A stretch of 64,000 nt of DNA, from assembly GCA_000004985.1 (NCBI GenBank), contig GG738883.1. The stretch is one strand, 5' to 3'. The notes below the pieces were generated by a model. That model ran no database searches. It had not been told where the DNA came from and was given only the letters and a program-made list of their open reading frames with translations. Of this stretch, positions 1,491-62,376 are shown piece after piece; position 1 is the first letter of the stretch, and each line of letters starts with the position of its first letter. Origin of the DNA: Naegleria gruberi (Eukaryota). A program made the translations under genes and the position numbers.

Positions 1491-2126
1491 TTAATTCTTG
1501 TAATCATATGGAGTGGTATTTGATTGAGTTTCCAACATTTGACTTGACATTGAACTGGCAGGCATGACAGCATCTTCCTTCTTTTCATAATTTCTCATCA
1601 TGATTAAAAGTGAATCAATAACTGAGAGAGCTCCAAAAACACAACAGACAATCATTGAAGAAAACCACAATGTAACAGTTTCACTCTGTAAACTCACACT
1701 TGCTTCTCCTCTTACAACAGCACCTGAGAGAATGCTACTCATTAGAGAAGTGCCAACCGTGGCCACACTTGAAACCACATAAGCCAAACATAAGGATTTG
1801 TGAGTGAGATTGAAAATCTTCAGACAACAGGATCTGCAACAAGCTTTGGACAGCACATTGTACGCCTTAAAGTTACGTTCACGAATAATTCTCATCAGAA
1901 TTTGATCATAGAAGAAGAGTGCAGAGAGGATGACTGTGAGAAGGGAGAAGAATAATGGAATTGCCATCAAGATGTAATATTCAATATTGGCGGAGGTTGA
2001 TTGAACCTTAACAGCATAGTAGGAAACTGAGGAGATTTGCAATAAGGAAGATAATAAGGAGAGAACAAAGGAGGTTCCCGAAATGATTCCCAATATAATT
2101 TTACCAGCTTTTGATGCTTTTCCCAT
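1491..2126 (-). CDS. small polytopic (about 4-TM) membrane protein, unknown function
   Basis: 211-aa ORF with four clear hydrophobic helices. No recognisable catalytic motif. Confidence 0.4.
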   Translation of the reverse strand: MGKASKAGKIILGIISGTSFVLSLLSSLLQISSVSYYAVKVQSTSANIEYYILMAIPLFFSLLTVILSALFFYDQILMRIIRERNFKAYNVLSKACCRSCCLKIFNLTHKSLCLAYVVSSVATVGTSLMSSILSGAVVRGEASVSLQSETVTLWFSSMIVCCVFGALSVIDSLLIMMRNYEKKEDAVMPASSMSSQMLETQSNTTPYDYKN

Positions 2127-4055: not shown

Positions 4056-6761
4056 ATGGCTTTTCATAAAAAAAAATTCAACATGCCAAATCCCATTAAA
4101 TTCCACTCACAAAGCGAAAGTTCTTCCACCTCAGAACAACACCATCACCACCACTTACCTCCTCAGCAGCAACAGCAACAACAACAAACTTTAGGCTCTT
4201 CAACACCAATTCCCCCGCCAAAACCAGCACATCTCTCTGCTAGTAGCACAACCAACAGTAATACAACAACGACGACGCAGCAGCTGTTGCAGGCCAATTT
4301 TACAGTGAATAGAACAACAACAACAGCAAATAATAATGGCGCCAAACAAAGTACTTCGCCAACTTCTTCTTCTTTGCAACATGTTGTAGGAAGTAATAAT
4401 ACAATTACAAATACAAATAATAATTCGAGTAGTAGTGGAACGAATGGATCGCCTTCTCCATTGTCTTCTTTCCAAGATAATGGTGAAAATACTCCAATAA
4501 TTCATACACCAACACCACAACCACAACAACATACCACAACATCACATTCCTTTGGATTTAGTATTATTGGAAATAGGAGAGGATCTACATCCCAATCTTC
4601 GGGTTCTAGAAATTCTGTAAAATCTCCTATTACCAATCAATTTATTCAACATGCTGATAATACTTTCCCAATAACAGAGGGAAATAATTCTCTATTATCT
4701 TCTTGGACTTGTAAACATAAAGGACCAGTATTGGTGGTGAGAGTTTCGAGAATTGAACATTTAAATGTTTATCCTTCATCAGCAGAGAAGGCAAATAATT
4801 CATCATCCACAACATCTTCCAATGCTTCGACACCAGCCACTCCTCAGAATAAGCAAACTCCAACAACATCCAATAATAATAATAATACTTCATCAACAAC
4901 ATCAGCTGTAACAACCAGTTCAACAACATCGAGTAGTAGTACCAGTGGTTTTGTTTCAACCAATGAAAAGTTTAGTAATTACAATCCTCATGTTGTTGTT
5001 GGTTATGGAAGATTAAAGACATTGAAGAATGATTCGGAAGATGCCATTCCAATCTTTGAACAAAGGACAAAAACCTTGCAGAGTGAAGTCTTTCCAATCT
5101 ATAATACTGTCTTTGAGTTTCCATTGCTCACTATGGACTTTTCAGCTAGGGGAAAGAAATTATCAGAGCTAGTAAAGAACTTCCCTGATCAACTGTTTTC
5201 CTCCGAGGCACACCAACATGCTGACAGTGATGCACACATTGAGGATACTACAGTATTATCTTTCAAGGTTTTATCTCACAATCGTTACAAGAAGAAACAG
5301 GAATCTGTAATTGCTGTCGCAGAATTAAATTTGGGAGATTTACCTCACGTTACCAATGATGAAAAGATTTTCCTAAGAATGAGAAAACCTGGTGAACCTT
5401 TGAGAAAATCAGACATGATTAATGGAGGAGAGGTATTACCAGAAAATCAACCAATTTTACATTTGGATGTCAAAGTTGTATGGAATAATGAAATATACAA
5501 ATCAATCGGAGACGATGAATCTTCAACTTCATATGATAAGTGGAATGACATTCTTACTCAATTCTACATTCAGGATATGGGAGATGATGAATTTGATAAT
5601 GATCCCATGCTAGCTAGGAGACAAGAAGACATGTTCAAATCAATGGACCGACTCATGAATCAATGTGAGTTGTTAAAACTTGTAACCTTCCCTCTTCCAC
5701 ACACATGGCACATGATTGGTAAGCAAGACAAACTCATTCTTGTCTCACCAACACAACTTACCAATGAGGAAATCTTTACCGATAACATTAATGTTTATTA
5801 TGTATACGAGAGCAATACTAAAAAAGTATTGGAAGAAATGCTTAAAAATAGTGAAAAAAGATCCTACTTTGGTTTGGCAATGCCACTTCACAATTTTAAA
5901 ATGCTGTCAAATTGGCAAGGATACAGATTTGCATGTTATTACTCACTTTATAACAAGATTTATCATCAAAATGTTATTGGAATTCAGACCAAGATTGGTG
6001 TCAGCTATATTCTTCAATATGTTTCCAATTGTGGCTCATTTAATCAACCTGTGTTTGATAAAATGTTGGAAAGACTTACCATCCTTCCGTCAGTCTACTC
6101 CAAAGATCTGGAAAGAGGAAAGATTTGGTGTGGTGCTGTTCCTTGTGCATGGAGAGGAGTTTCCAAAGATTCAATCATTCACTTGTACTCTCCTTATCAA
6201 TGTAATGGAAAATTGAATTGTACCGATCAAATCATGCTTCAACCATTTGTCAACAACATGTCCACTATGGAGAGAATAAGATTTATTTTGAAAAAGTATA
6301 TGGATGATGCTGACTTTGAAGGATTGGAAATTCTACATGGTCCACTAGCTACCGATTTGAATGATCACACAGATAGTGTCATGTATGAGGAGTATAATCA
6401 TTATTCGGATTTGGAACAATTGGAATCTTCAGAGAATGTTGATCATACATTTGAGCCACCATTCTGGATCAATAGAAGAAAAGCACTCCCTGATAATCTT
6501 AACATTTCCAAAGATAACCTTGAGGAGGCTTCTACCATTACTTTTGCTGTGAAAATGAAGGCCAAACCACCAACAAACACCTACGATGTACCTCCACCAT
6601 CTTCCTTCTGCAATTCTTACTACATCTACCAAAAGACTGTAGTAATGAAAATGAAAAATGTTGACTATCAACTTAACATTAGTTACAAAACAACACTCAA
6701 CAGCCATCTAGTTTCAGAAGGAGCTTTTAACAGACTAGTTCAATCCATCAGATTGACCTAA
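4056..6761 (+). CDS. large hypothetical protein with Q/N/T/S-rich low-complexity N-terminus
   Basis: 901-aa uninterrupted ORF. N-terminal His, Gln, Thr and Asn homopolymer tracts, then a roughly 600-aa non-repetitive region without a motif I can name. Confidence 0.55.
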   Translation: MAFHKKKFNMPNPIKFHSQSESSSTSEQHHHHHLPPQQQQQQQQTLGSSTPIPPPKPAHLSASSTTNSNTTTTTQQLLQANFTVNRTTTTANNNGAKQSTSPTSSSLQHVVGSNNTITNTNNNSSSSGTNGSPSPLSSFQDNGENTPIIHTPTPQPQQHTTTSHSFGFSIIGNRRGSTSQSSGSRNSVKSPITNQFIQHADNTFPITEGNNSLLSSWTCKHKGPVLVVRVSRIEHLNVYPSSAEKANNSSSTTSSNASTPATPQNKQTPTTSNNNNNTSSTTSAVTTSSTTSSSSTSGFVSTNEKFSNYNPHVVVGYGRLKTLKNDSEDAIPIFEQRTKTLQSEVFPIYNTVFEFPLLTMDFSARGKKLSELVKNFPDQLFSSEAHQHADSDAHIEDTTVLSFKVLSHNRYKKKQESVIAVAELNLGDLPHVTNDEKIFLRMRKPGEPLRKSDMINGGEVLPENQPILHLDVKVVWNNEIYKSIGDDESSTSYDKWNDILTQFYIQDMGDDEFDNDPMLARRQEDMFKSMDRLMNQCELLKLVTFPLPHTWHMIGKQDKLILVSPTQLTNEEIFTDNINVYYVYESNTKKVLEEMLKNSEKRSYFGLAMPLHNFKMLSNWQGYRFACYYSLYNKIYHQNVIGIQTKIGVSYILQYVSNCGSFNQPVFDKMLERLTILPSVYSKDLERGKIWCGAVPCAWRGVSKDSIIHLYSPYQCNGKLNCTDQIMLQPFVNNMSTMERIRFILKKYMDDADFEGLEILHGPLATDLNDHTDSVMYEEYNHYSDLEQLESSENVDHTFEPPFWINRRKALPDNLNISKDNLEEASTITFAVKMKAKPPTNTYDVPPPSSFCNSYYIYQKTVVMKMKNVDYQLNISYKTTLNSHLVSEGAFNRLVQSIRLT

Positions 6762-12063: not shown

Positions 12064-13789
12064 ATGCTCAAATTGACAATTGGCAGTTTGTTGTTGCTTG
12101 CCATCTTTGTTTGCACAGTATCTCTTTGTGAAGCAAAGACTGTATCGCTCAGACATTCTCATCATAAAGATGGAGCTTTAACTATCATTATTGATATGGG
12201 TGGAGAAGGTAAAAAGTCAAAGGAAACAAAAGAAACTAAAACCAAAGAAACTAAAGAAACTGAAGAAACTAAACCAAAGTTGGACGATACTACAAAGGAC
12301 ATTGTAGCACAAGTTTCAAAGGCCATCTCCAAGGAAGAAGAAAAGAAACTCGCCGAATCCTTGTTGACTCTTGGTAATGAGCTCACCCAAGTAAGTTATT
12401 TTCTATTTCACACCAATTATAATAATAACTATGGAAATTTAACCGCAATGTATAAATGTACATGTTATCCAACCACCACCAAACAACAACAACAACAACA
12501 ATAATTGGTCATCATGACGCGATTCTAATTTTCATGTGAACAAATAGATTGCCAAGTTAATTCCTGGAAAGGACAGTGAACAAAAATTATTGAGAGATCA
12601 ACTCTTGTCTGTTGCCAGTGAAATGGCAAAGGAAGCTGAAAAACCTTCCTTCATGATCTTGCAATCCTCCATGGCTATGGTCGTTCAAGATAAACAAAAT
12701 CAACAAAATGCTGCAGCTGACAGTAGTAGTAGTAGTAGTGGAGCCCAAACCATGTTTATTGGTGCTGCTATTGAAGGTCTCAGTCTTGGAATGAATGCCA
12801 TTGATGGTATTGGTACCTATTCTACATCTGTTAGTAAGATTGGTCAATGGGTTAAAGGAAAGGCTGCTGATAAGTTGGATAAGTGGGGTTTACAATCTGC
12901 TGCTAGCATTGCTAGAAATACTGGTAAATCAATCGATGGTTTTGCTCAAAAGGTTGCTCCATACGAAACTAAACTTGCTGCCAAGATTGCTCCAGTTGTC
13001 AAGTCAAAGACTTTCCAAGGAATTAAAAGAGTTGCCAACGTTGTTGGTGGAGCTCTTTCTATTCATGCTGGTGTCAAATTCTTGGGTATGAGTGCTGCCA
13101 CTAAATTGCCAAAGACTTTCAGTGCTATCAAGTCAAGCATTACTAAAGCTGCCAAGGTTGTTGCTAATAAGGGTGGAATTGTTAGAAAGATTGCTGCTAC
13201 TGGTCTTAAGGCAAAGAAGGCTGCCACTCAATCATTGAATCAATTCTCCACTTTCAGAAAAGTTAATGCTGCTGTCAAAGCTTCAAAGGCTGCTAAGGCT
13301 GCCAAGAATGTTGGACATGCTGCTCATGCTCACTCCAAGTTTAAGACTGCTGTCCATCATGCTCATGCAGGATATGAAATTTATTCTGGTTCTTCCCATG
13401 TTAAACACGGTCTTCTTGGTCATCATGGTGGTGGACACGGATCAAGTGGTCATGGTTCAAGCGGTCATGGTTCAAGTGGACATGGATCTTCATCTGGACA
13501 CGGAGCTTCCTCATCCAAACATGGAGCTTCTTCTGGACATGGATCTTCATCCTCAAGAAAATCATCTGGTCACAGTTCATCATCTTCAAGAAGTTCATCA
13601 TCCACCAGAAAATCAACTGGTAACTCTGGAAGTAGAACCTCAAGAACCTCATCAACAAGATCATCAAATTCTGGTAGATCATCCTCCACTTCTGGCAGAA
13701 GCAGTACTAGATCTTCATCATCATCTAGACAAACCAGAAGCAGCAACAGTTCAAGACAAACTACTACCAAAAGAAGAGGCGGCAAATAA
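12064..13789 (+). CDS. secreted low-complexity protein (KETKE repeats, Ala/Lys-rich core, GHGSS repeats, Ser/Arg-rich tail); join(12064..12390,12548..13789)
   Basis: Signal peptide MLKLTIGSLLLLAIFVCTVSLCEA. Exon 1 ends ...GNELTQ at a GTAAGT donor (12391). A 157-nt intron ends AAATAG (12547). Exon 2 is in phase and runs to the TAA at 13787-13789. Unspliced readthrough stops 38 codons downstream of the donor (TAA at 12502-12504). Confidence 0.65.
12220..12290 (+). repeat. tandem 9-nt repeat (AAAGAAACT-like) encoding KETKETKETEETK
   Basis: Direct inspection of 12221-12290. Confidence 0.7.
13420..13520 (+). repeat. tandem 15-nt repeat encoding (GHGSS)n
   Basis: ggtcatggttcaagc / ggtcatggttcaagt / ggacatggatcttca units. 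Confidence 0.7.
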
Positions 13790-46835: not shown

Positions 46836-48446
46836 ATGAAACCACACCACCATCAAAAAAGAAATAACCAATCTTTAACTGCATCATCACCAATTCTATT
46901 CGGTAAAATTCCTCATGTAGTAGAATTGTCATCATCACAACAAACGAATTATCACAATAATGAAGAAGTGAAATCGTTAACTGTTTCGGAAGAACAATCT
47001 TGTGGAAACATGACAAGGAAGGAACATAAACCGAGGAAATCCAGAGATTTTGCAAATAGGAATGTGAAAAAGCATGCTGACTCTAAAAACAAACGAAAAT
47101 TGACCAATAATTTTGTGCATTTACCTTGTGAATTAGTATTGCATATTGTAGAATATTTGGAGTTTTCACAATTTATTCACATCTTTCTATTGTGTAAAAA
47201 TTTAACAAACAAATTGAATGAAAATTCCTCTCAATTCTACAAACTGCTATTGATTAGAATTATGAAAAGTGATATTTCCAGCTATAGGAGATATTTAGAG
47301 GAGAGAACCAAGTATAATTCCTGTCCATTCTCATTCGATATTAAGAGCACTTGCTTTAAGGCAAGAGGAATTGTACAGTGGAAAAGGTTGATTGAAAAGA
47401 GAGAGCACGAATTGGATAATCATTTGAATAAGAAACGAAAAGAACTCAAGGATTGGAAACAAGTTTATGACGGCTATTCGAGGAGAAGATCCATTGAGCA
47501 TGTCATGTTTAGAGTGAAAACTGTTTCGAAAGCTTGTTGGAAGAATGATAAGTCCTTGATTCTTGTTTTGAAAATGATAACTCAATTGAGGGAGAAATTG
47601 TTGAAATTGGACCCTGAATTGAGAAAGTACATTGTACAGAGAAATTATGGAAAGAGAATCAAAAGAGGACATACACTCTTCCATCAAATAGTTTATCTGA
47701 TTGGAAATTATTCAGAAATTCGATATGATTATGAATCTATTCAACCTTTCGTACCCCATCTCAAGTTTCTAATTGGATGTTGTGGAGAAGAAAATCCTCT
47801 CTTTACCAGAAATTCATACAATTACTCTGGAATGGATTATATTGTGAGAATTGGGAGTTATGCACTCATATCAGAGATGGTCTATTCGTACTCTCATCTA
47901 TTGAAAGGATCAGATTTATCAACATTTGAAAGGAAACCATTCTTGTTTTCCATGATTAAGAACAAGATTGCTAGCACAGTTATTAAGAATTGGATTCAAA
48001 AGTTTGAATTTCCAAAATCCTCTTTGACTATTCGAAATCATCTCAATATGAATATTCTTCACTATCTGATGCACTTTGTATTTAAATATGGTACCCAAGA
48101 CTTTTCACAATTCGTTTACCTTCTGAAAAGTGAATTATCTGAAGAGCAAGTACTAGCAATGCTAAAGGGAAAAGATGATTTAGACGAAACACCAATGTCT
48201 AAACTCCTTTCTATGTGTGAAAATAATCAAAGGAATTCCAGAGTAGGAATAATCAATTGGAAGAATCTTAAAAGACTGTATGGTCTGGTCAATATGATGG
48301 CTATTCGCTTGGGATATGATATGAGTAGTGAGGAATTGGATCGTTGGAATAATTTATTGAGAAATAATGATGAAATATTTGGAGATTCTTGTTCGAAATT
48401 TCATCTTTCTGAGGGAGTTATTGAAATGATGAGAAAAGGAATGTGA
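46836..48446 (+). CDS. F-box-like hypothetical protein
   Basis: Basic N-terminus, then LPCELVLHIVEYLEFSQFIHIFLLCKNL (F-box-like). 536 aa. Confidence 0.45.
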   Translation: MKPHHHQKRNNQSLTASSPILFGKIPHVVELSSSQQTNYHNNEEVKSLTVSEEQSCGNMTRKEHKPRKSRDFANRNVKKHADSKNKRKLTNNFVHLPCELVLHIVEYLEFSQFIHIFLLCKNLTNKLNENSSQFYKLLLIRIMKSDISSYRRYLEERTKYNSCPFSFDIKSTCFKARGIVQWKRLIEKREHELDNHLNKKRKELKDWKQVYDGYSRRRSIEHVMFRVKTVSKACWKNDKSLILVLKMITQLREKLLKLDPELRKYIVQRNYGKRIKRGHTLFHQIVYLIGNYSEIRYDYESIQPFVPHLKFLIGCCGEENPLFTRNSYNYSGMDYIVRIGSYALISEMVYSYSHLLKGSDLSTFERKPFLFSMIKNKIASTVIKNWIQKFEFPKSSLTIRNHLNMNILHYLMHFVFKYGTQDFSQFVYLLKSELSEEQVLAMLKGKDDLDETPMSKLLSMCENNQRNSRVGIINWKNLKRLYGLVNMMAIRLGYDMSSEELDRWNNLLRNNDEIFGDSCSKFHLSEGVIEMMRKGM

Positions 48447-48762
48447 TCTATTAGCAGTTAGAGAATCTGTTTATTGATTTGTAGTGGTAATGAAGATTTT
48501 ACACAGCAGAGTTGAGGAGTAAAGAAAGTAAATTCAGCTATTGAAGTGTTACCACTTTTTAAACAATATCAACAACGTTCACTTTGTGTGCTGTTTGGAC
48601 ATTGAACATGCACAGTAATTGGGCGATTTAAGTATGAATGATTAAGCGCTTCTTCAACAATAAATAATTCTTGCAACATTTTTGTGAAATAATGGAAATT
48701 GTTTGAAAAAAAAGTGATTATTCCAGTTGGCTAAAAGCACATATCTAAATCTTTATTCAGAT

Positions 48763-50071
48763 TTATCTTCTTCTTCTGTATGAGGAGGAGGAAGAGGATC
48801 TTGAAGATGATCTAGATGGAGATCTGGAGTAAGATCTAGATGGGGATCTAGATGATGATCTTGAAGAGGATCTAGATGAGGATCTAGATGAGGATCTTGA
48901 AGATGATCTAGATGGGGATCTAGAATAAGATCTTGAGGTAGATCTAGATGGGGATCTGGATGATGATCTGGATGATGATCTTGATGATTGTCTACCAGAT
49001 GATCTAGAAGATTGTCTTGGTCTGTATTCTCTGGTTTGTCTTCTTCCAGTATTTTGTCTTCTACCAGTGGATTGTCTTCCAGTATTTTGTCTTCTAGTTG
49101 GTCTAGTAGATGGTCTGGTTGGTCTGGTTGTTGGTCTGGTTGATGGTCTAGATGGTCTAGATGGTCTAGTTGGTCTGGTTGATGGTCTAGATGGTCTGGT
49201 TGATGGTCTAGTTGGTCTAGATGGTCTTTGAGTGGATGGTCTAGATGGTCTAGTTGGTCTTTCAGTTGGTCTAGTTTGTTGAGTTGGTCTTTGGGCTGGT
49301 TGAGCAGGTTGTTGAGATGGAGCTCTTCCATTATCAAGAACATTCAAAGCAGCTCTATACTTTTGATCTCTGTCAGCCTTACCATTGTAACCACCGTTAA
49401 TTCTCTTGGTGATTCTATCGAAAGCATCTTGATTCTTTTGATCAGCATATTGATTCAAATTTCTAGAATTCCAGAACCAAGCAGCAGTCTTGAAACCAAT
49501 ATCTGGTCTTTCAGCAAGGGTTGGATTATTTTCCAAATCAACACCCAAAGCTTTACCAGCAGCACGATAATTGGAACGTCCAGTAATTTGAATAGGACCT
49601 CTTCCCTTATACTATAATTATATGAATGTAAATTATCATTAGATCAACATGTTAAAAAGCAAGACACAAAATTTGATGATAGAACAAAGATATTAGAAAT
49701 ACAACAATAATAACAAAAAAACATACTCTAACACCATCACCAGAATGAGTATTACCCAAATCCTTTCTACCTTCATAAGCCTTTCCAGAAGCAAATTCTC
49801 TAAACCACTTCAAGTTACCAGATTCATGACCCAATTGAGCCAAGAAAGCAGCTTGTCTAGCAGGAGTATTAATACCAGCAGAATTCATAGCTTCATTCAA
49901 GTGTCCAACATATTCATTAGCCTTTGATGAGGACAATCCAGGCATTAATTGACTCAATTCAGAGGCAGTCAAATCACGCAAGATATCGAAAGAGTCTTCA
50001 GTTGCTGATGCAGCGGCAGCGGCGAACATCAAACAAGCGAACAAAACGGCAACGATGGCGAAGAGTTTCAT
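48763..50071 (-). CDS. secreted glycoside hydrolase family 19 (chitinase/lysozyme-like) with Pro/Thr/Ser/Arg-rich repeat tail; complement(join(48763..49611,49727..50071))
   Basis: Signal peptide MKLFAIVAVLFACLMFAAAAASA. GH19 motifs AAFLAQLGHESGNLKWFRE, ...GDGVR|YKGRGPIQITGRSNY (intron between R and Y; GTATGT donor; 115-nt intron; TATAG acceptor), and TAAWFW. The tail holds (RPTRPS)n then (SRSSSRSPS)n. Confidence 0.8.
48770..49290 (-). repeat. tandem 9-18-nt coding repeats (ggtct[a/g]g[a/t]t units; gatctagatg[a/g]ggatct units) encoding RPTRPS and SRSSSRS modules
   Basis: Visible periodicity across 48775-49270. It also creates a spurious out-of-frame ORF (48753..49343) on the same strand. Confidence 0.7.
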
Positions 50072-50521
50072 TTTTTGATTTTTTTTTAGATGATGATTTT
50101 TGCTGTGCGTATGAATTGCGAGATTGAAAAAGGCAGCAGAGGTGAACAATTCGATTATAATGTGAGAGCGTGGGATTATGATTATTGAAATCGAAGTGTA
50201 TGTTTGGCAGGTGACAGATGTCAGATTGGCTGTAGTTAGTGGCATAGGTTTGGATTGTGCTAGTATCATTATCTTGTTATATTGATACAATGATGGGTAG
50301 ATTGATTATTTCAATGTTGAATTTTTAACAAACTGACAATGTGATCATGGACCGTTTTCCATCAACATCTCTAGTAGCACCCATCTTCATCAGTCTTTCC
50401 ACAATTATTAATATCACAGTAATGTATTAATAACTTGTTCTGTCCAAATTCAAAAAGTGACATCTGTCATAAATTCATGACACTCTGTGTATGTAATTTT
50501 TAAATTTTAATAATAAAAAAA

Positions 50522-51427
50522 ATGTTAACCACTCCAAATATCATTCCATCCAGCATTATCGTTCGGCTTTTTATTTTACTGTTTTTCCAATTTATTTTGA
50601 GTAATTTTATTGAAAGATTGTGGAATTTAATTTACACAAACGAAATGATGAGATCCACACTTTTCTACACCACAACAAATAATTTACTCATGGTTATCTT
50701 GTATGGATTATTTTGTGTGGTAGATAAAATGTCAAATCCTGATTGGCGTCTGAAGGGTCCTATAAAATCAAGTGTTGCTGACAGTAGCTTATATGGAGAT
50801 GCATGGTTATATTTTTGGAGAAATACTGGTTGTTCATGGACCATTGCCTCACTTTTAACATATTTGGAACATGGTGATTTGCATGGAGGTTTTACCATAC
50901 AAGGAATTGAATTTTCAAAATTTCCAAAACAAGCACCTGGATTTCCCAGATTTATTATGGAAATTTTGTTCATGTTGTTGTGTATTGACTTTTTCATGTA
51001 TTGGATGCATCGAGCTTATCATTGGGGATTTCTTTACAAGTACATTCACAGTGTTCACCATGAATATCATGAACCAATTTCGGTAAATGCTACTTCTGTG
51101 CATGTTGTCGAGATTATCAGCATGACCGTAGTAGTATTCATAGTCCCCAAGGTGCTCTATGAAATGATCGAGTTGCATCCATTATCTATTTATTGTATTT
51201 CCTTCATTACAACGGTGCATGTTGTTTTGGAACATTGTGGATATGATGATTATTTTGAGTGGTTGACGTTTGGAGTTATTCCAGTAAGCAAGATGCATTT
51301 TGTTCATCATCAATTATCGAGAGTTAATTATGGATTTTATTTTTATTTTTGGGATTGGTTGTTTGGGACTAAAATGTCATATGAGGAGATGGATAAATTA
51401 AGGCAAAAAGGAAAGAAGGAAAATTAA
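50522..51427 (+). CDS. fatty-acid hydroxylase superfamily enzyme, sterol C4-methyl oxidase (ERG25/SC4MOL)-like
   Basis: Histidine boxes HRAYHW, HSVHHEYHEP and HFVHHQLSRVNYG. Four TM helices. The spacing pattern fits ERG25. Confidence 0.75.
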   Translation: MLTTPNIIPSSIIVRLFILLFFQFILSNFIERLWNLIYTNEMMRSTLFYTTTNNLLMVILYGLFCVVDKMSNPDWRLKGPIKSSVADSSLYGDAWLYFWRNTGCSWTIASLLTYLEHGDLHGGFTIQGIEFSKFPKQAPGFPRFIMEILFMLLCIDFFMYWMHRAYHWGFLYKYIHSVHHEYHEPISVNATSVHVVEIISMTVVVFIVPKVLYEMIELHPLSIYCISFITTVHVVLEHCGYDDYFEWLTFGVIPVSKMHFVHHQLSRVNYGFYFYFWDWLFGTKMSYEEMDKLRQKGKKEN

Positions 51428-51965
51428 GAAGTTTTGATATGTTTTTTTATGGTGGAAAGTGATAATTCAGCAGAATTATTGGTAATTATTTGAAACATTT
51501 CATAATTAAATTGGAATATTATGACAATGTTACCAATTCGAAGGAATTATTGTCAGTCTTTGAGGCTGTTATTCAATAAGTATGACTTTATTTAATTATA
51601 AATGTATTTATTTAATTTGGGGAAATCATCTTGTGCATATCACTTTTCCATCACCCTCAAAATCTCTTTTCCTCATAAAAACCACACAACCACATCCACT
51701 CATTCACACGCTTTCCATCTCCACAAAAACCAAAATAGCAAGAGCTCAAATCTCCAAATTTACACATCAATTCCTTATTTTCCTTAGCAATTTGATTTTA
51801 AAAAATATTCTTCGAAAAAAATTAGCAATAAGGTGAGTAGAGACCCAATACGAGATTTTTACGCTTAATATTTTGTTTGCTTAAATATTTGTCATCATCA
51901 TCACAATGATCATTATAAATATATTTGATGGATGAAATATATATCGGATTAATGTGTTGGTTAGG

Positions 51966-52787
51966 ATGGACACTCAACAACAACAAATCACTGAAATGAT
52001 CAATGATCTAAATGATAAAAAGGCAGAAATTTCTGCCAAGGTTGAAAAGGTGCAAGAAAACATTCAAAAGGTTAACAATTTTATTGAGGATAATCAAGAA
52101 AATATTCAAAAGGGAATTGAAACAGCCAATAAGGTTGTTGATACTGTTAATACAGTTCTTGAAAAGAAGGAAGAAATTGAAAAGAAGTTAAATGATATGC
52201 AAGAAGATCTCAAGATTAAGGCAACCAATACTTTGAATGCAATCGGATTGAATATTGCTGGAAAGGTTGCAGAAAAGTACAAGTTGAAATCACTCCCAGA
52301 AATGATGAACAGCATTCAAAATATCATTCCACCTGCTGTCTTGTATGGTTCAGTGATGAGAAAGCCAATGTTGACTCAATTCGGAACAATGATTCCAGGT
52401 TTTTCAGTTCCTTTCGAAACTATTGAGCTCATCGCTAGTTATGCATTCCTTGGTTTGCTTCCATTTGCCTTGTTCGTCAGCTTTATGGCAACCCAACAAA
52501 AAGCTAAAGTTGATGATGAATTGGCAAAGAGCAATGGCTCAATCAGAAGACACAAAAAGATTGCCATGTTGATGAGTATTTTGAGAGCTTCTTTGTGTGG
52601 ATTGGCTTATACTTGTTATGAATTGTTTGTTGGTCAAGTTCCTACTGAAATGGTGTTTGTCAAGTCTTATTTGCCTTACATGGCTTTTGCTACATTCACT
52701 TCAATTACTGGATACGAATGGTTAGATGCAAAGATTGATGATCTTGCTTACAAGTATTTGCCATCCCTCGTCAAGAAGGAAGAATAA
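51966..52787 (+). CDS. coiled-coil protein with C-terminal TM segments, unknown function
   Basis: ATG at 51966. N-terminal heptad-rich region (QENIQKVNNFIEDNQENIQKGIE) and hydrophobic segments after residue 150. Confidence 0.4.
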   Translation: MDTQQQQITEMINDLNDKKAEISAKVEKVQENIQKVNNFIEDNQENIQKGIETANKVVDTVNTVLEKKEEIEKKLNDMQEDLKIKATNTLNAIGLNIAGKVAEKYKLKSLPEMMNSIQNIIPPAVLYGSVMRKPMLTQFGTMIPGFSVPFETIELIASYAFLGLLPFALFVSFMATQQKAKVDDELAKSNGSIRRHKKIAMLMSILRASLCGLAYTCYELFVGQVPTEMVFVKSYLPYMAFATFTSITGYEWLDAKIDDLAYKYLPSLVKKEE

Positions 52788-52874
52788 ACTAATTAATATT
52801 CATTTTTTGTTATTCTTAATAATCCTATAAATAAATATTTGAAATAATTTAATAAATTAATCTAGAGTATTATC

Positions 52875-54729
52875 CTAATTTTGTAAACGTAAATGGTCAA
52901 TAATTCTGACCAATCTCAGTCTCACTCCAACCTTAGCAATTCCCATTTCCAGCAGAATTTGATTATGTAAACCCAAAAATGCTAAACCATCAATATCGTG
53001 ATGTTTGAATAATTCACCAACATTATGAGAAGGGAATGAAGAATCCAAAGTATCAATCCATTGAGCAACCCTAAAGGTATCCCAACTTTCAAAATCTCCT
53101 CTTCTGATATACAATTGCTCCTTAAGTTTATCCTTTTCAATTGGAACAAATCGAGCATATGGTGGTAAATTGGCATCATTAGAAGAATCAGGTGAGGAGG
53201 AAGTTGTCATTACTCTGTTTGGTTGTTGCATATATTGATTGTTGTTCATTATTGGAGTAGTGACATTATTGGTCTTGATATTTGGAAATCCATTATTATT
53301 CTGAATTGGTGATGGTTGAGAATTCATTCCATTGAAATAAGGTGATGAGGAAAAATAATTAGAGGATGAAGCGGAGGAGACTGCACGTTCTCTTTGAGGT
53401 GTCACAGTATTAGAGATAGATGGATTCATACCACCATTATTATTGTACATTTGGATATCACTACGATTTACATTAGGATATGGCTCAGATCTGTACTTTT
53501 GATAACTTGCTGATCTCTCTCGTGTTTGTAATGAGGCAGGTGAATTTTCTGGATTGGAAGTAGTACCTTGTTGATTGAAAGATGGTGTTACTGGTTGTTG
53601 TTGCTGTTGTTGTTGGAAAGTATAGTTTGTTGTAGGAGTTTGAGGAGTGGAATATTGCTCGCTTTGAGTATTATTCGTTGGGGAGGAAGGTTGTGGAGAG
53701 CCTGGTGCGTCATCTTTCTTTTTTCTTCCTTTTTGCTTTGGTTCATAATATTGACAATCAATTCCTCTCTTTCCACACTCGGAACATTTTGGTAATAATC
53801 TGTCACACTATATATTAATTAATAAGGGAATGAAATTGAAAACAAACCTTCTTGTGTCTCTTTCTACATGGAATACAAGCGATTGGATGATATTCACCAG
53901 AGTTGTTATCATTAATTGGTGAACTACTCTTCTTATGAGTTTGATATTCATGGAAGATGGTATGTGCAACTGTTTGTTGCTGTGAGGTTGTGGAAGATGT
54001 ACTTTGGACAGCTGATTGAGCAGTGTTGTTAACAACACTTGATGGCATGCCATTATTCATGACAGTATTTTGAGATGTTGGTGGTATTTGTTGATACAAT
54101 TGTTGTTGCTGATGGACATTACCTTGTTGTTGAACATTCTCCATGTTATTATATTGAGGTGGAGGATTTTGCATAACCTGTTGTTGTGGATTGTTATTTG
54201 TTTGTTGTGGATTTGGGGCATAACCTTCAATGGTATTATTGTTACCAGGCATGCCATACGAAGGGCCACTAGTCGAATTCAAAGAAGGTAAAGCATTATT
54301 CATTGGTTGTTGACTTGGATATTGATGGTGAGCATAGGAACCATAGTATGGTGGTGGTTGTTGATGGTGATGAATTGGAGGATAATATCCACCATGTTGA
54401 CCATCTTGGTGAGGAGGTGGAATTCCATTACTAGATTGTTGATAATTTGGTGGAATTACATTAGGAGTTGGCATTGAATGATTCATCATATTATTAGATG
54501 ATGAAGTAGTGGTACTACTACTTGGTGTATTGTTATTATTATTGGTAGAGGACATTTGAACTTCTTCCTTATTCATCATCATTGGTGGGATGACACCACT
54601 TGTCGGTTGTTGCTGTTGCTGTCCATTATTATTATTATTATTCAAATATTGATGATGATGGTTCGGATGATGATTCGATGTTGTCGTTGTAGGAGGCGAT
54701 AAATGCTCTTCTTTCACGTTCGCTAACAT
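52875..54729 (-). CDS. Zn2Cys6 (GAL4-type) zinc-cluster protein with C-terminal SAM domain; complement(join(52875..53807,53848..54729))
   Basis: Exon 1 ends ...ACIPCRKRHKK at an AAG|GTTTGT donor. A 40-nt intron (53808..53847) ends TATATAG. Exon 2 begins CDRLLPKCSECGKRGIDCQYYEP, completing a canonical C-x2-C-x6-C-x5-C-x2-C-x6-C cluster. Unspliced, the protein would end after VCFQFHSLIN. The C-terminus has a SAM domain (WDTFRVAQWIDTLD...IDGLAFLGLHNQILLEMGIAKVGVRLRLV). Long Q/N/P-rich linkers. Confidence 0.7.
53808..53847 (-). other. 40-nt spliceosomal micro-intron (GTTTGT...TAG) splitting the Zn2Cys6 motif
   Basis: Length is not a multiple of 3 and it contains an in-frame TAA. Removing it restores the zinc-cluster spacing. 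Confidence 0.65.
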
Positions 54730-61305: not shown

Positions 61306-62376
61306 ATGTCACACAAGTCACTTATCATTTTATTACTTGTCTCCATTGTGTTATCAGTTCTATTCATCACCAACGTCCAAGCAGCTGGTAAATCATCTGG
61401 TTCTCGTTCTTCAGGTGGTTCCAGATCATCATCTTCAAGATCATCTTCCAGATCTTCAGGAGCTTCTCGTTCTCGTAGTTCTGCTTCTTCTTCAAGAGGT
61501 GGTAGATCATCATCTTCAGGAGGAGCTGCCAAGAGAGGTGGTTCTACAGCTTCAAAGAGAGGCGCTTCAGGTGCTGCTAGAGGTGCTAGAGGAGGTGCTG
61601 CTGGCAAGAGAGGAGGTAAAGCAGGTGCTTCTGCAGGTAGAAAATCAGCAGGTGCTGCAGGTGGTAAAAAAGGAAAGAAGGGTGGAAAGGCAGCAGGTGC
61701 TGCTGGAGCTGCTGCTGGAGGTAAAAAAGGAAAGAAGGGTTTGAAAGGTGGTTTGGGAAAGAAATTGTTGGATAAGGCTAAGGGAGCTGCTCAAGATGCT
61801 TTGAATGGAGGTGCTGGTGGTGAAGGTGGTGGTGATCAACAAGGAGGTGGAGATGCTTCACAAGGTCAACCAGAACAAGCTCAACAACAAGAACAAGGTC
61901 AACAAGCTGGAGGTGAACAACCACAACAAGGAGGTGAACAAGCTGTTCAACAACCAACTCAAGAAGGTTCTGCTGCTCCACAACAAGAGCAACAACAATC
62001 TGCTGGAGGTCAACCACAAGAACAATCTCAAGTTCCACAAGCTCAACAACAACAACAATCTGGTCCAACTGGTGGTCAACCACAAGAACAACAACAACAA
62101 CAATCTGCTGTTGGTGGAGGAGAAACTACTCAACAACAACAACAACAATCTGGTCCAACTGGTGGTCAACCACAACAAGAACAACAACAACAAGGAGGTG
62201 TTCAACAAAATGGAGGTTATCAACAAGGAGGTGCTCAACAAAATGGCGGAAATTCATATGTTCGTGGTGGAGGAAATAGACCAAATGGAAATTATATTAG
62301 ATCTTATTCAAGAGGAGGTAGAAGTGGTGTCTACATGAAGGTCAATATTAACATTAATGGTGCTCCAGCTCAATAA
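61306..62376 (+). CDS. secreted low-complexity protein (Ser/Arg-rich, Gly/Ala/Lys-rich, Gln/Glu-rich modules)
   Basis: Signal peptide MSHKSLIILLLVSIVLSVLFITNVQA. (SRSS)n block, (GGKKGKKG)n block and a Q-rich block containing a duplicated 20-aa unit QQQQQSGPTGGQPQEQQQQQ. Five overlapping out-of-frame ORFs in the track are artefacts of the low complexity. Confidence 0.6.
   Translation: MSHKSLIILLLVSIVLSVLFITNVQAAGKSSGSRSSGGSRSSSSRSSSRSSGASRSRSSASSSRGGRSSSSGGAAKRGGSTASKRGASGAARGARGGAAGKRGGKAGASAGRKSAGAAGGKKGKKGGKAAGAAGAAAGGKKGKKGLKGGLGKKLLDKAKGAAQDALNGGAGGEGGGDQQGGGDASQGQPEQAQQQEQGQQAGGEQPQQGGEQAVQQPTQEGSAAPQQEQQQSAGGQPQEQSQVPQAQQQQQSGPTGGQPQEQQQQQSAVGGGETTQQQQQQSGPTGGQPQQEQQQQGGVQQNGGYQQGGAQQNGGNSYVRGGGNRPNGNYIRSYSRGGRSGVYMKVNININGAPAQ
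62041..62200 (+). repeat. tandem duplication (period about 87 nt) of CAA-rich unit inside CDS
   Basis: The motif caacaacaacaacaatctggtccaactggtggtcaaccaca occurs at about 62044 and about 62131. Confidence 0.65.

What the first reader, a model, noticed from the sequence alone, without database searches (positions are those of the whole stretch)
48763..50071. Intron-containing GH19 chitinase gene with an extended Pro/Thr/Ser/Arg repeat tail in an amoeboid eukaryote
GH19 chitinases or lysozymes are characteristic of plants, bacteria and phages. They are unusual in heterotrophic protists. This copy has a eukaryotic signal peptide. It also has a 115-nt GTATGT...AG intron placed inside the conserved GDGVR|YKGRGPIQITGRSNY block. 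So it is a resident gene that has gained an intron, not bacterial contamination. A 280-aa tail of (RPTRPS)n and (SRSSSRS)n follows the catalytic domain. The tail is encoded by obvious tandem 9-18-nt DNA repeats. It may be mucin-like, a cell-surface retention module, or an RS-like module. Possible roles are a bacterivory effector (lysozyme activity on prey peptidoglycan) or a cyst-wall remodelling enzyme.
Basis: partly seen in the sequence, partly recalled or inferred. Interest (0 to 1): 0.6.

Follow-up and report, generated by a model that had tools for sequence, protein, structure and literature searches.

The report
Amoeba lysozyme gene with polycationic tail
The soil amoeba Naegleria gruberi carries an intact, intron-containing gene, missing from its reference protein set, for a secreted enzyme of bacterial or phage origin that most likely digests the cell walls of its bacterial prey rather than chitin, and its long arginine-rich tail is kept in related amoebae.

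Summary
The gene is real and sits at the stated coordinates on the minus strand. Exon 1 is 50071..49727, a 115-nt phase-0 GTATGT..TAG intron is 49726..49612, and exon 2 is 49611..48763. The product is 397 aa. The tail is 186 aa, not 280.

The window is Naegleria gruberi NEG-M, and this gene is absent from the public protein sets. The catalytic domain belongs to the endolysin (muramidase) branch of GH19, not the chitinase branch:
- the catalytic Glu residues (E83, E92) are 9 residues apart
- the water-coordinating residue is T125
- the chitinase-specific cysteines are missing
- the best sequence and fold matches are phage endolysins
- named bacterial relatives at 57-71% identity include a family whose Corallococcus member is a characterised lysozyme

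The intron position is shared with three N. lovaniensis paralogs, so this is an old resident gene. A second allele shows strong purifying selection on the catalytic part and in-frame length changes in the tail.

Three about 77%-identical orthologs all carry 141-186-aa tails that are disordered and Arg-rich, with no Lys and almost no acidic residues (net charge +29 to +48). Composition is conserved and sequence is not.

GH19 in Naegleria and bacteria-derived GH19 muramidases in protists are already published. The conserved polycationic tail and the missing annotation are the new parts.

The parts
49727..50071 (-). Exon 1 (345 nt, codons 1-115). ATG at 50071..50069. It encodes the signal peptide and the first half of the GH19 domain.
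   Evidence: The start codon is supported by orthologs that begin at the same Met. A 1-nt indel just upstream of the ATG in allele L007 puts the upstream in-frame ATGs out of frame.
50003..50071 (-). Predicted signal peptide, residues 1-23 (MKLFAIVAVLFACLMFAAAAASA, cleavage after A-S-A).
   Evidence: Mean hydropathy of residues 3-21 is 2.71. AlphaFold2 models helix 2-21. All paralogs and orthologs have equivalent N-termini. No SignalP run was possible.
49823..49825 (-). Codon for E83 (GAA), the predicted catalytic proton donor in the motif AQLGHES.
   Evidence: It aligns with E79 of C25GH19B-type proteins and E49 of SPN1S (PMC9098779, PMC8547705). It is invariant in the 40-sequence alignment.
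49796..49798 (-). Codon for E92 (GAA), the predicted catalytic base, 9 residues after E83.
   Evidence: The 9-residue spacing is the endolysin-subfamily spacing (E49/E58), against 22 in chitinases (PMC8547705).
49612..49726 (-). Intron: 115 nt, GTATGT...TTATAG, phase 0, between R115 and Y116.
   Evidence: GC is 21%. It is 117 nt in allele L007 through a 2-nt indel, which would not be tolerated in coding sequence. The position and phase are the same in N. lovaniensis P0021, P0008 and P0111.
49324..49611 (-). Exon 2, catalytic part (residues 116-211). It includes the YKGRGPIQITGRSNY block and T125 (49582..49584), the predicted water-coordinating residue.
   Evidence: AlphaFold2 pLDDT is mostly above 90 for residues 31-210. 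Only one synonymous difference from allele L007.
48766..49323 (-). Exon 2, tail (residues 212-397, 186 aa): (RP[ST])n, then (RRQNTG)n, then (SRS[SP])n, ending SSYRRRR. Net charge about +48, pI 12, predicted disordered.
   Evidence: Codon adaptation index in frame 0 is 0.73-0.88, against 0.32-0.55 in the other open frame. Five in-frame indels separate it from allele L007. Compositionally equivalent tails occur in orthologs L161 and L163.
48763..48765 (-). Stop codon TAA.
   Evidence: It is conserved in allele L007. The last 18 nt, TAC AGA (A/G)GA AGA AGA TAA, are nearly identical in ortholog L161.
48752..48757 (-). AATAAA hexamer 6 nt after the stop codon, a possible polyadenylation signal.
   Evidence: Read directly. 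This is inference only and was not tested.

Best explanation
This is an intact, expressed-type gene of Naegleria gruberi that is not in the reference annotation. It encodes a secreted enzyme of the endolysin branch of glycoside hydrolase family 19.

Shown here:
- The gene structure, the signal-peptide-like N-terminus and the GH19 fold.
- All core catalytic and substrate-binding residues: E83 as acid, E92 as base, T125 positioning the water.
- Membership of the endolysin rather than the chitinase subfamily.
- Purifying selection on the catalytic part.
- An intron position shared with Naegleria paralogs.
- Conservation of an Arg-rich disordered tail in three orthologs.

Inferred:
- The enzyme is an inverting muramidase that cuts the MurNAc-GlcNAc backbone of peptidoglycan. 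It is delivered through the secretory pathway to phagosomes or the medium to break down bacterial prey.
- The family descends from a bacterial or phage-type gene acquired by an ancestor of heterolobosean amoebae. It later gained introns and duplicated.
- In this ortholog group the bacterial wall-binding modules seen in relatives (SH3b in paralogs; LysM and PG_binding_1 in bacterial homologs) are replaced by a 141-186-aa polycationic tail. The tail has no Lys and almost no acidic residues.
- The tail most likely holds the enzyme on anionic bacterial envelopes (LPS, teichoic acids). It may help it cross the Gram-negative outer membrane, as cationic C-termini do in some natural and engineered endolysins.
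For: Identity and annotation:
- The flanking ORFs are exact N. gruberi NEG-M proteins with consecutive accessions, EFC41774.1 and EFC41775.1.
- The spliced protein is not in the 15-billion-protein collection.
- An exon-1 query finds only a truncated metagenome ORF at 100% identity and no N. gruberi protein.

Endolysin type:
- The best PDB sequence hits are phage endolysins: 9ms7 at 6e-34, then 9eoi, 9hnv and 4ok7. Plant chitinases score 1e-8 to 1e-16.
- The best fold match is 9ms7 (target-normalised TM-score 0.90, rmsd 1.7 A), followed by three more endolysins.
- The Glu spacing is 9, with S84 and T125. The subfamily pattern I67, R102 and G113 is present. There is no Cys in the mature domain.
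- The closest named bacterial relatives (57-71% identity) are myxobacterial and acidobacterial proteins with LysM or PG_binding_1 modules. That family includes C25GH19B, a characterised lysozyme with a pH optimum of 4.5-5 (PMC9098779).
- Trichomonas GH19s of bacterial origin are muramidases, not chitinases (PMC12612818).

Resident, old and functional:
- The intron is shared in position and phase with three N. lovaniensis paralogs.
- Both introns of ortholog L161 lie at positions used by N. lovaniensis paralogs.
- A 2-3-aa loop insertion is present in all 11 heterolobosean sequences. It is absent from 31 named bacterial sequences, one phage sequence and 7 further bacterial loci.
- GC3 is 28%.
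- Catalytic CDS divergence between alleles is 0.3% (2 synonymous, 0 non-synonymous). It is 1.0-1.2% in the neighbouring CDS and 4-5% in intergenic DNA.

Tail:
- Frame-0 codon adaptation is as high as in the catalytic domain.
- Orthologs L161 (354 aa) and L163 (at least 340 aa) are about 77% identical in the catalytic part. They carry tails of 145 and at least 141 aa with R 21-29%, K 0%, D+E at most 1%, and charge +39 and +29.
- The L161 tail uses four Arg codons, three Pro codons and four Thr codons.
- The tail start (PSQQP..ERPTRP) and end (SYR[RG]RR*) align between the window and L161.
- The Acrasis kona GH19 has a +67 Arg-rich region on the other side of the domain.
- Natural endolysins active from outside are typically highly cationic at the C-terminus. 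Fused polycationic peptides confer outer-membrane passage (PMC11003714).
Against: - No transcript, protein or activity data exist for this gene. Splicing and the 3' end are inferred.
- Substrate specificity is inferred from homology, and some GH19 enzymes act on both chitin and peptidoglycan.
- My neighbour-joining tree does not resolve where the gene sits. Bootstrap is 6% for joining the other Naegleria/Willaertia copies and 47% for that clade itself. Single versus repeated acquisition and the donor therefore remain open.
- 64 unnamed metagenome sequences also carry the loop insertion, and some could be bacterial.
- Tail indels are multiples of 3, but so are the repeat periods, so this alone does not prove translation.
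- The known outer-membrane-active C-termini are short and amphipathic-helical, not 186-aa disordered Ser/Pro-rich chains.
- Heavy O-glycosylation or phosphorylation of the Ser/Thr residues could cancel the charge.
- S/R-rich low-complexity stretches occur in at least two other ORFs in this window, so a genome-wide mutational tendency contributes.
Confidence: 0.65

Rival explanations
1. It is a true GH19 chitinase. It would be used to remodel a chitin-containing cyst wall or to digest fungal prey.
For: The Pfam family name is 'Chitinase class I'. A 2026 survey lists the N. gruberi GH19 genes as chitinases (PMC13231604). Some GH19 enzymes have both activities (PMC8547705).
Against: - The chitinase-specific pattern, including the two loop-3 cysteines, is absent. 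There is no Cys at all in the mature catalytic domain.
- The Glu spacing is 9 rather than 22, and the water-coordinating residue is Thr rather than Ser.
- The sequence and fold neighbours are endolysins.
- The characterised close relative is a lysozyme (PMC9098779).
- Protist GH19s of this kind had no chitinase activity (PMC12612818).
- There is no chitin-binding module.
- Relatives carry peptidoglycan-binding modules.
Confidence: 0.1
2. The catalytic part works as described, but the tail has no function of its own. It would be a by-product of stop-codon loss and microsatellite expansion in an AGA/TCT/CCA-rich 3' region. It would be tolerated because it is disordered, or removed by proteolysis after secretion.
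For: - The tail is built from tandem DNA repeats.
- It varies in length between two near-identical alleles, 186 against 173 aa.
- It has no detectable homolog in 5.8 billion proteins.
- Its sequence is not conserved between orthologs except at the two ends.
- Paralogs end at VLGC* exactly where the tail begins.
- S/R-rich low complexity is seen in other ORFs of the window.
Against: - Three orthologs at about 77% catalytic identity all keep a tail of at least 141 aa with the same extreme composition: Arg only, no Lys, at most 1% acidic. The genome is AT-rich, where Lys codons would be expected to be favoured.
- Synonymous codon diversity within the L161 repeats indicates conservation at the amino-acid level.
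- Both ends of the tail are conserved.
- A distantly related Acrasis GH19 carries a similar cationic region at the other terminus.
- This is the only segment in the 64-kb window with R at least 25% and R+S+T+P at least 80% over 40 aa.
Confidence: 0.25
3. The locus is a decaying relic or pseudogene, or a piece of bacterial contamination, which would explain why the reference annotation skipped it.
For: There is no gene model in the public protein sets. The only database entry is a truncated ORF that reads into the intron.
Against: - After splicing the reading frame is intact for 397 codons.
- All catalytic and core residues are conserved.
- It has the lowest divergence of any segment compared between the two alleles, and both differences are synonymous.
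- Codon usage and GC3 are host-like.
- It is flanked on both sides by N. gruberi genes.
- It has a spliceosomal intron shared with N. lovaniensis paralogs.
- The truncated database ORF comes from a prokaryote-style gene call on a metagenome contig.
Confidence: 0.03

Closest known systems
C25GH19B of Corallococcus silvisoli (myxobacterial 'clade II' GH19 lysozyme; PMC9098779, PMC10875029)
   Same: The layout is signal peptide plus a single endolysin-like GH19 domain of about 180 aa. The catalytic pair E79/E88 corresponds to E83/E92 here, with the same 9-residue spacing. Corallococcus proteins of about 202-212 aa that share this layout and numbering are 59-60% identical. Its lysozyme activity has an acidic optimum, which would suit a phagosome.
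   Different: It is bacterial, has no intron and has no tail. Related bacterial homologs carry LysM or PG_binding_1 modules instead. It lacks the 2-3-aa loop insertion found in the heterolobosean sequences.
Phage and prophage GH19 endolysins: PWe2 (9ms7), PaGH19Lys (9eoi; PMC12329726), SPN1S (4ok7)
   Same: Same fold (target-normalised TM-score up to 0.90, 41% identity to PWe2), same catalytic residues and the same subfamily-specific positions.
   Different: Those act from inside the host cell at the end of a phage cycle, have no signal peptide of this kind, and sit in lysis cassettes. This gene is chromosomal in a eukaryote, is secreted and is spliced. SPN1S also has an extra three-helix peptidoglycan-binding insert that is absent here.
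Trichomonas GH19 classes A and B (laterally acquired muramidases; PMC12612818)
   Same: A protist GH19 of bacterial origin with a signal peptide and both catalytic Glu residues. The tested class B enzymes were shown to be muramidases, not chitinases. Some carry SH3b modules, as the Naegleria and Willaertia paralogs do.
   Different: A different eukaryotic supergroup and probably an independent acquisition, which was not tested here. No polycationic low-complexity tail is described for them.
Naegleria lovaniensis and Willaertia magna GH19 paralogs (P0004, P0008, P0021, P0111; P0002, P0006, P0068)
   Same: 59-62% identical. They share the loop insertion. The N. lovaniensis copies share intron positions with this gene.
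   Different: They have a Cys pair (NTCC...) and end in VLGC* with no tail. Several have an N-terminal SH3b domain. The Willaertia copies have no introns.
Endolysins with cationic C-termini and engineered 'Artilysins' (PMC11003714; Acinetobacter-phage GH19 endolysins noted in PMC8547705)
   Same: A peptidoglycan hydrolase joined to a strongly positive C-terminal segment. In those enzymes the segment binds LPS and lets the enzyme act from outside.
   Different: Those segments are 5-40 aa, often amphipathic helices rich in Lys. Here the tail is 186 aa, disordered, uses Arg only, and is 58% Ser/Thr/Pro. No activity is known.
Acrasis kona 'chitinase domain-containing protein' KAL0487029.1 (P0268)
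   Same: A heterolobosean GH19 with the same LKWF.EF and NPTLAERPD.GF motifs, the same loop insertion, and a long Arg-rich (21% R, +67) low-complexity region.
   Different: The cationic region is N-terminal to the catalytic domain. A C-terminal Peptidase_C39_2-like domain is also present, but only weakly (E=9.5e-4, below the Pfam cut-off).

Membership tests
Glycoside hydrolase family 19 (Pfam PF00182) | Profile match above the curated threshold | tested here: met
   E=2.8e-14, 53.9 bits against a cut-off of 25.5.
Glycoside hydrolase family 19 (Pfam PF00182) | Two catalytic Glu residues plus a Ser/Thr that positions the nucleophilic water | tested here: met
   E83, E92 and T125. Both Glu residues are invariant and T125 is at least 90% conserved in the 40-sequence alignment. 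They align to E79/E88 of the C25GH19B type and to E49/E58/T130 of SPN1S.
Glycoside hydrolase family 19 (Pfam PF00182) | Bilobal alpha-helical lysozyme-like fold | tested here: met
   AlphaFold2 model with pLDDT mostly above 90 for residues 31-210. 48 PDB matches at E<=0.001, all 50 listed at probability 1.00, nearly all GH19 or related lytic enzymes.
Glycoside hydrolase family 19 (Pfam PF00182) | Inverting hydrolysis of beta-1,4 bonds in chitin or peptidoglycan | not testable with these tools
   Needs recombinant enzyme.
GH19 endolysin (ELYS) subfamily as defined by Orlando et al. 2021 (PMC8547705) | Catalytic Glu residues 9 apart (E49/E58), Ser after the first Glu, Thr as water coordinator | tested here: met
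   H82-E83-S84 ... E92, and T125.
GH19 endolysin (ELYS) subfamily as defined by Orlando et al. 2021 (PMC8547705) | Subfamily pattern I33, R109, G118, L173. Three of the four were found in 10 of 12 characterised endolysins. | tested here: met
   I67, R102 (Y99-x-x-R, as in Y106-x-x-R109) and G113 correspond. R102 rests on motif spacing, because HMMER placed the 2-residue gap differently. Position 173 is ambiguous: the alignment to 4ok7 puts N168 there, next to the invariant L167.
GH19 endolysin (ELYS) subfamily as defined by Orlando et al. 2021 (PMC8547705) | Nearest characterised or solved relatives are endolysins or lysozymes | tested here: met
   PMC9098779.
GH19 chitinase (CHIT) subfamily, plant classes I/II/IV and bacterial chitinases | Subfamily pattern C97, C105 (loop-3 disulfide), F151, G190, G192, F/Y222; Glu spacing of about 22 | tested here: not met
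   There is no Cys in the mature catalytic domain and the Glu spacing is 9. Chitinases rank below endolysins in both sequence and fold searches.
GH19 chitinase (CHIT) subfamily, plant classes I/II/IV and bacterial chitinases | Chitin-binding accessory module (hevein/CBM18, CBM5/12 and similar), common but not obligatory | tested here: not met
   Pfam finds only PF00182 in the 397-aa protein.
Phage endolysin in the functional sense | Encoded in a phage or prophage lysis cassette and acting from within the host | tested here: not met
   The gene lies on a eukaryotic chromosome between an F-box gene and a sterol methyl oxidase gene. It has a spliceosomal intron and a signal peptide. It works like an endolysin enzyme but is not one in this sense.
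Horizontally acquired gene of bacterial or phage origin | Nested within bacterial or phage diversity in a supported phylogeny, with patchy eukaryotic distribution | tested here: inconclusive
   There are 15,982 representatives at E<=0.001. The named ones outside Heterolobosea are bacterial, at up to 71% identity. My neighbour-joining tree has no support at the relevant nodes. No maximum-likelihood program was available.
SR/RS-domain splicing proteins | RNA-recognition motif plus an RS dipeptide domain; nuclear location | tested here: not met
   No RRM or other domain. There is an N-terminal signal peptide. The tail alone finds no relative.
Mucin-like Pro/Thr/Ser domains | Long disordered stretch dominated by Ser/Thr/Pro and densely O-glycosylated | tested here: inconclusive
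   S+T+P is 58% and the region is predicted disordered. However, it is 27% Arg, and glycosylation cannot be tested here.
Peptidoglycan hydrolases with a polycationic envelope-targeting extension (natural cationic-C-terminus endolysins, Artilysins) | Strongly positive terminal segment attached to the catalytic domain | tested here: met
   Tail charge is +48 and pI is 12.0. It is conserved as +39 and at least +29 in the orthologs.
Peptidoglycan hydrolases with a polycationic envelope-targeting extension (natural cationic-C-terminus endolysins, Artilysins) | The segment permeabilises the outer membrane or increases killing from outside | not testable with these tools
   Needs assays with and without the tail.

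The most novel reading that the evidence does not exclude
The tail is a naturally evolved counterpart of engineered 'Artilysins'. After an amoeba lineage took up a bacterial or phage-type muramidase, one paralog lost its stop codon and read into a repeat-prone 3' region. Selection then held the product as an Arg-only, acid-free, disordered polycation. The repeats keep turning over while the charge is conserved. The tail glues the enzyme to anionic bacterial envelopes and helps it breach the outer membrane. It may also be cut in the phagosome into Pro/Arg-rich antimicrobial peptides of the RPxRPx type.
Probability: 0.25. Interest if true: 0.65.

Novelty: new variant of a known kind. Interest (0 to 1): 0.45.

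Why it matters
Bacteria-derived cell-wall hydrolases in eukaryotes show how predators and hosts borrow weapons from microbes. Here one such enzyme appears to have swapped the usual bacterial wall-binding modules for a very long polycationic disordered tail. The tail is conserved by composition across species. If it improves access to Gram-negative prey, it is a ready-made natural design for enzyme antibacterials. It would also be a clear case of a functional domain born from a microsatellite.

There are two practical points:
- The gene is missing from the N. gruberi reference proteome, so family counts in recent surveys are incomplete.
- Metagenome protein catalogues hold only truncated 'exon 1 plus intron read-through' versions of such genes.

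The pattern of intron positions, shared among paralogs and lost differentially, gives a small dated example of intron gain and loss after gene transfer.

Tried and rejected
- **N. gruberi contig through a flanking gene:** nothing was on record, so the absence of a gene model was tested indirectly.
- **Phylogeny:** I built a neighbour-joining tree with 100 bootstraps on 270 domain sequences over 172 columns. The nodes of interest are unsupported (6%, 47%), so it does not settle the number of transfers or the donor. No maximum-likelihood software was installed.
- **Scan of bacterial and archaeal genomes:** it returned only homologs at 65% identity or less without the loop insertion. The patterns were query-specific and missed the myxobacteria, so no donor was identified.
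- **Tail-only search:** 8000 candidates and none significant.
- **Metagenome scan:** mostly distant bacterial or phage hits. One eukaryote-like contig (L097) has an intron 5 nt upstream of the window's position and no tail.
- **Upstream in-frame ATGs as the start:** rejected, because a 1-nt indel in the second allele breaks that frame and the orthologs start at the same Met.
- **Tail translated in the other open frame, or not at all:** rejected on codon adaptation and ortholog conservation.
- **A further intron removing the tail:** reading the sequence, I saw no GTAAGT or GTATGT donor after the catalytic domain. This was not searched formally.
- **RS splicing domain, GPI anchor, conserved dibasic processing sites or N-glycosylation sequons in the tail:** no support by reading the sequences. 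None of these motifs is shared by the three orthologs, and the C-terminus is not hydrophobic.
- **Bacterial contamination and pseudogene:** rejected (see the rival explanations).
Full report
**1. What is in the sequence**

The finding's coordinates are the exact span of a minus-strand gene.
- Translation from the ATG at 50071 runs 115 codons to ...GNTHSGDGVR.
- The next bases are GTATGT. Read-through gives 24 unrelated, hydrophobic codons and then a stop.
- 115 nt downstream, after TTATAG, the frame resumes as YKGRGPIQITGRSNY.
- Splicing 49726..49612 out gives a 1194-nt coding sequence and a 397-aa protein.
- The intron has 21% GC against 38-42% in the exons.
- Pfam finds one domain, Glyco_hydro_19, at E=2.8e-14.
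- The N-terminus is MK followed by 19 hydrophobic residues and A-S-A (mean hydropathy 2.71). AlphaFold2 models it as a helix. This fits a cleavable signal peptide, though no dedicated predictor was available.
The composition is S62, R50, P26, T20, Q13, with only two acidic residues.
- The tail is organised as (RP[ST])n, (RRQNTG)n and (SRS[SP])n and ends in SSYRRRR*. It is encoded by tandem DNA repeats with periods from 9 to 51 nt.

**2. Where the window comes from, and whether the gene is annotated**

- The two flanking ORFs are exact matches to N. gruberi NEG-M proteins. They are EFC41774.1 (an F-box protein) and EFC41775.1 (C-4 sterol methyl oxidase), which are consecutive accessions.
- The spliced GH19 protein is not in the 15-billion-sequence collection.
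- In an exhaustive HMMER search, the only near-identical entry is P0130 (144 aa). It is exon 1 plus intron read-through, called on a 4.8-kb metagenome contig.
- A search with exon 1 alone again found only P0130 at 100% identity and no N. gruberi-named protein.
- The gene therefore seems to be missing from the reference proteome. A 2026 survey counts four GH19 sequences in N. gruberi (PMC13231604). This copy would be an additional one.

**3. Which kind of GH19**

Orlando et al. [quoted passage not shown] They give diagnostic positions for each. The window protein fits the endolysin criteria:
- It has A74-A75-F76-x-A78-Q79-x-x-H82-E83-S84, with the second catalytic Glu nine residues later at E92. 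Chitinases have a spacing of about 22.
- It has Y99-x-x-R102, G113, G118-R119-G120, Q123, T125 (Thr is the endolysin state), and N129-Y130.
- Three of the four endolysin-specific positions are met (I67, R102, G113). The fourth is ambiguous in alignment.
- The chitinase-specific cysteines are absent. The mature catalytic domain contains no cysteine at all.

The neighbours agree:
- The best PDB sequence hits are phage endolysins: PWe2 at 6e-34, the P. aeruginosa GH19 endolysin, a 9hnv chain deposited as N-acetylmuramoyl-L-alanine amidase, and SPN1S. Plant chitinases score far lower.
- An AlphaFold2 model (pLDDT mostly above 90 for residues 31-210) matches PWe2 with target-normalised TM-score 0.90 and rmsd 1.7 A. 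Three more endolysins follow before any chitinase.
- E83 and E92 correspond to E79 and E88 of the Corallococcus lysozyme C25GH19B. [quoted passage not shown]
- Trichomonas GH19s of bacterial origin are muramidases with no chitinase activity (PMC12612818).

The best reading is therefore a peptidoglycan muramidase. Chitinase activity is not excluded but is disfavoured.

**4. Relatives and origin**

- Apart from an 83%-identical metagenome ortholog, the closest relatives are at about 56-71% identity. They are GH19 proteins of Willaertia magna and Naegleria lovaniensis. Alongside them are hundreds of myxobacterial and acidobacterial proteins fused to LysM, PG_binding_1 or SH3b modules.
- The heterolobosean paralogs have signal peptides, sometimes an SH3b domain, a Cys pair and a ...VLGC* end.
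- My neighbour-joining tree places the window gene with them, but bootstrap support is 6%. The Naegleria+Willaertia clade itself gets 47%. The tree does not settle how many transfers occurred or who the donor was.

Two rarer characters help:
- **Loop insertion.** A 2-3-residue insertion (AD-xxxQ-xxFD) is present in all 11 heterolobosean sequences, including this one and Acrasis kona. It is absent from 31 named bacterial sequences, a phage endolysin and seven further bacterial loci. Sixty-four unnamed metagenome sequences also have it. Two related metagenome genes whose contigs I inspected lie on eukaryote-like contigs, and only one of them (P0042) has the insertion.
- **Intron positions.** The window's phase-0 intron at GDGVR|YKGRG is at the same position and phase in three of four N. 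lovaniensis paralogs.

Intron positions across the family:

| Gene | Intron positions |
|---|---|
| Window gene (N. gruberi) | GDGVR\|YKGRG (phase 0) |
| N. lovaniensis P0021 | SAFL\|AQLA (phase 1), GDGVR\|YKGRG (phase 0), GID\|LEN (phase 2) |
| N. lovaniensis P0008 | SAFL\|AQLA (phase 1), GDGVR\|YKGRG (phase 0) |
| N. lovaniensis P0111 | EGRK\|DLGN (phase 0), GDGPK\|YKGRG (phase 0), GVD\|LEN (phase 2) |
| N. lovaniensis P0004 | SAFL\|AQLA (phase 1), EGRR\|DLGN (phase 1) |
| Ortholog L161 | EGRR\|DLGN (phase 1), GVD\|LENN (phase 2) |
| Ortholog L163 | SGK\|AYEG (phase 2) |
| Willaertia magna copies | none |

The simplest reading is a single family in Naegleria that acquired several introns after transfer and then lost them differentially. 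GC3 of 28% and host-like codon usage also point to long residence.

**5. A second allele**

Contig L007 is collinear with window 47737..52797. Divergence by segment:

| Segment | Divergence from L007 |
|---|---|
| Catalytic coding sequence | 0.3% (two differences, both synonymous) |
| Neighbouring genes | 1.0-1.2% |
| Intergenic DNA | 4-5% |
| Intron | a 2-nt indel |
| Tail | 1.4% substitutions plus five in-frame indels (9, 12, 6, 12 and 12 nt) |

- The allele's protein is 384 aa instead of 397, with the stop codon conserved.
- The catalytic domain is therefore under strong constraint.
- One caveat applies. The repeat periods are themselves multiples of three, so in-frame indels alone do not prove translation.

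**6. The tail is conserved as a feature**

Two truncated exon-1-like ORFs from the exon-1 search led to three more loci.

| Protein | Length | Tail | Tail repeats | Arg | Net charge |
|---|---|---|---|---|---|
| Window gene | 397 aa | 186 aa | RP[ST], RRQNTG, SRS[SP] | 27% | +48 |
| L161 (L162 is the same gene with small differences) | 354 aa | 145 aa | RPT/RPY/SYRP | 29% (Pro 28%, Tyr 12%) | +39 |
| L163 (cut by the contig end) | at least 340 aa | at least 141 aa | SRNT/SRSS | 21% | +29 |

- The three proteins are about 77% identical to each other in the signal peptide and catalytic domain.
- All three tails have no lysine and at most 1% acidic residues.
- The first 40 or so tail residues (PSQQP..RP..TRP.ERPTRP) align between the window gene and L161. 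So do the last codons (TAC AGA (A/G)GA AGA AGA TAA).
- The L161 tail uses four Arg codons, three Pro codons and four Thr codons. The amino-acid pattern is thus kept while the DNA drifts.
- In the window gene the tail's codon adaptation in frame 0 is 0.73-0.88. That equals or exceeds the value for the catalytic domain. The other open frame gives 0.32-0.55.
- A SAM-domain gene next to L161's GH19 matches window 52875..53210, which indicates a related genome.
- The Acrasis kona GH19 has a +67 Arg/Ser/Gln-rich region, but on the N-terminal side.
- AlphaFold2 predicts no structure in the tail. The tail alone finds nothing in 5.8 billion proteins.
- In the whole 64-kb window no other open frame reaches this Arg+Ser/Thr/Pro density. 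Milder S/R-rich stretches do occur in two other ORFs.

**7. How it most likely works**

Shown:
- an intact spliced gene
- a secretory-type N-terminus
- an endolysin-type GH19 domain with a complete active site
- purifying selection
- a conserved polycationic disordered tail

Inferred:
- The enzyme enters the secretory and phagosomal route and hydrolyses the glycan backbone of prey peptidoglycan.
- The tail takes the place of SH3b, LysM or PG_binding modules. It would bind polyanionic envelopes and perhaps displace the divalent cations that stabilise LPS.
- Natural endolysins that act from outside typically have highly cationic C-termini, and fused polycationic peptides give outer-membrane passage (PMC11003714).
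- The tail differs from those precedents in length, in disorder and in using only Arg. Glycosylation or phosphorylation could change its charge.
- I put the catalytic assignment at about 0.8-0.85, the prey-digestion role at about 0.6, and the specific tail role at about 0.35.

**8. Novelty**

Already published:
- GH19 genes in N. gruberi (PMC13231604)
- lysozyme arsenals in Naegleria (PMC9928731)
- endolysin-like GH19 lysozymes in predatory myxobacteria (PMC9098779, PMC10875029)
- laterally acquired GH19 muramidases in Trichomonas (PMC12612818)

I found no paper describing any of the following:
- GH19 lysozymes in amoebae as such
- this ortholog group
- its absence from the reference annotation
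- the shared and differentially lost introns
- the conserved Arg-only tail

It is best filed as a new variant of a known kind.

Noticed in passing
window 61306..62376 (+): A 356-aa ORF has a signal-peptide-like start (MSHKSLIILLLVSIVLSVLFITNVQA). It is followed by (SRSS)n, then Lys/Gly/Ala-rich, then Gln-rich low complexity. This is another apparently secreted, basic, low-complexity protein, so S/R-rich secreted tails may be a wider N. gruberi theme.
   Followed up: partly
window 12590..13789 (+): An ORF whose C-terminus is a (GHGSS)n and S/R/T-rich tail ending ...TTKRRGGK*. It resembles the GH19 tail in having a basic end but is much poorer in Arg.
   Followed up: no
window 51441..51649: About 210 nt just downstream of the sterol methyl oxidase gene are present in NEG-M but absent from allele L007. 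The L007 junction reads ...ttttgatat|caccctcaaaatc. I saw no obvious terminal inverted repeats. It is an insertion or deletion polymorphism of unknown nature.
   Followed up: partly
L007 2546..2980; also L161 206..508 and 610..747; L163 744..1058: Prokaryote-style gene callers applied to metagenome or Logan contigs split these amoeba genes into fragments. Examples are 'exon 1 plus intron read-through' proteins such as P0130, P0275 and P0276. Such 100-144-aa fragments in the big catalogues are useful beacons for unannotated eukaryotic genes.
   Followed up: yes
L002 3426..4509 and 5001..6102 (N. lovaniensis PYSW02000023.1): Two SH3b-GH19 genes (C9374_005244 and C9374_005243) lie in tandem about 500 nt apart. 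They share the SAFL|AQLAHES intron but differ in their second intron (GDGVR|YKGRG against EGRR|DLGN).
   Followed up: partly
P0268 (Acrasis kona KAL0487029.1, 667 aa): This GH19 is combined with an N-terminal 275-aa Arg-rich region (+67). It also has a C-terminal domain weakly matching Peptidase_C39_2 (E=9.5e-4, below the Pfam cut-off). It may be a two-enzyme cell-wall-lytic protein.
   Followed up: partly
P0124 (JGI metagenome, 550 aa): A signal-peptide protein with two GH19 endolysin-type domains. They are separated by Cys-rich repeats (CxxxxxCxxxxxxxxC...) and a (PQPPK)n linker. Its source is unknown.
   Followed up: no
L097 about 190..245 (metagenome contig VFQM010039490.1, GC 38%): A eukaryote-like GH19 gene (75% identical, ending VLGC*, no tail). 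It seems to have an intron 5 nt upstream of the window's position, phase 1 inside the last Gly codon of GDG. The splice sites were read by eye only. This could be intron sliding or an independent insertion in the same hotspot.
   Followed up: partly
window 48766..48783 and L161 about 1540..1557: The last six codons including the stop (S-Y-R-[R/G]-R-R-stop) are almost identical at the DNA level between the window gene and ortholog L161. This holds despite about 23% protein divergence in the signal peptide and catalytic domain. It could be a conserved C-terminal motif or a 3'-end signal.
   Followed up: partly
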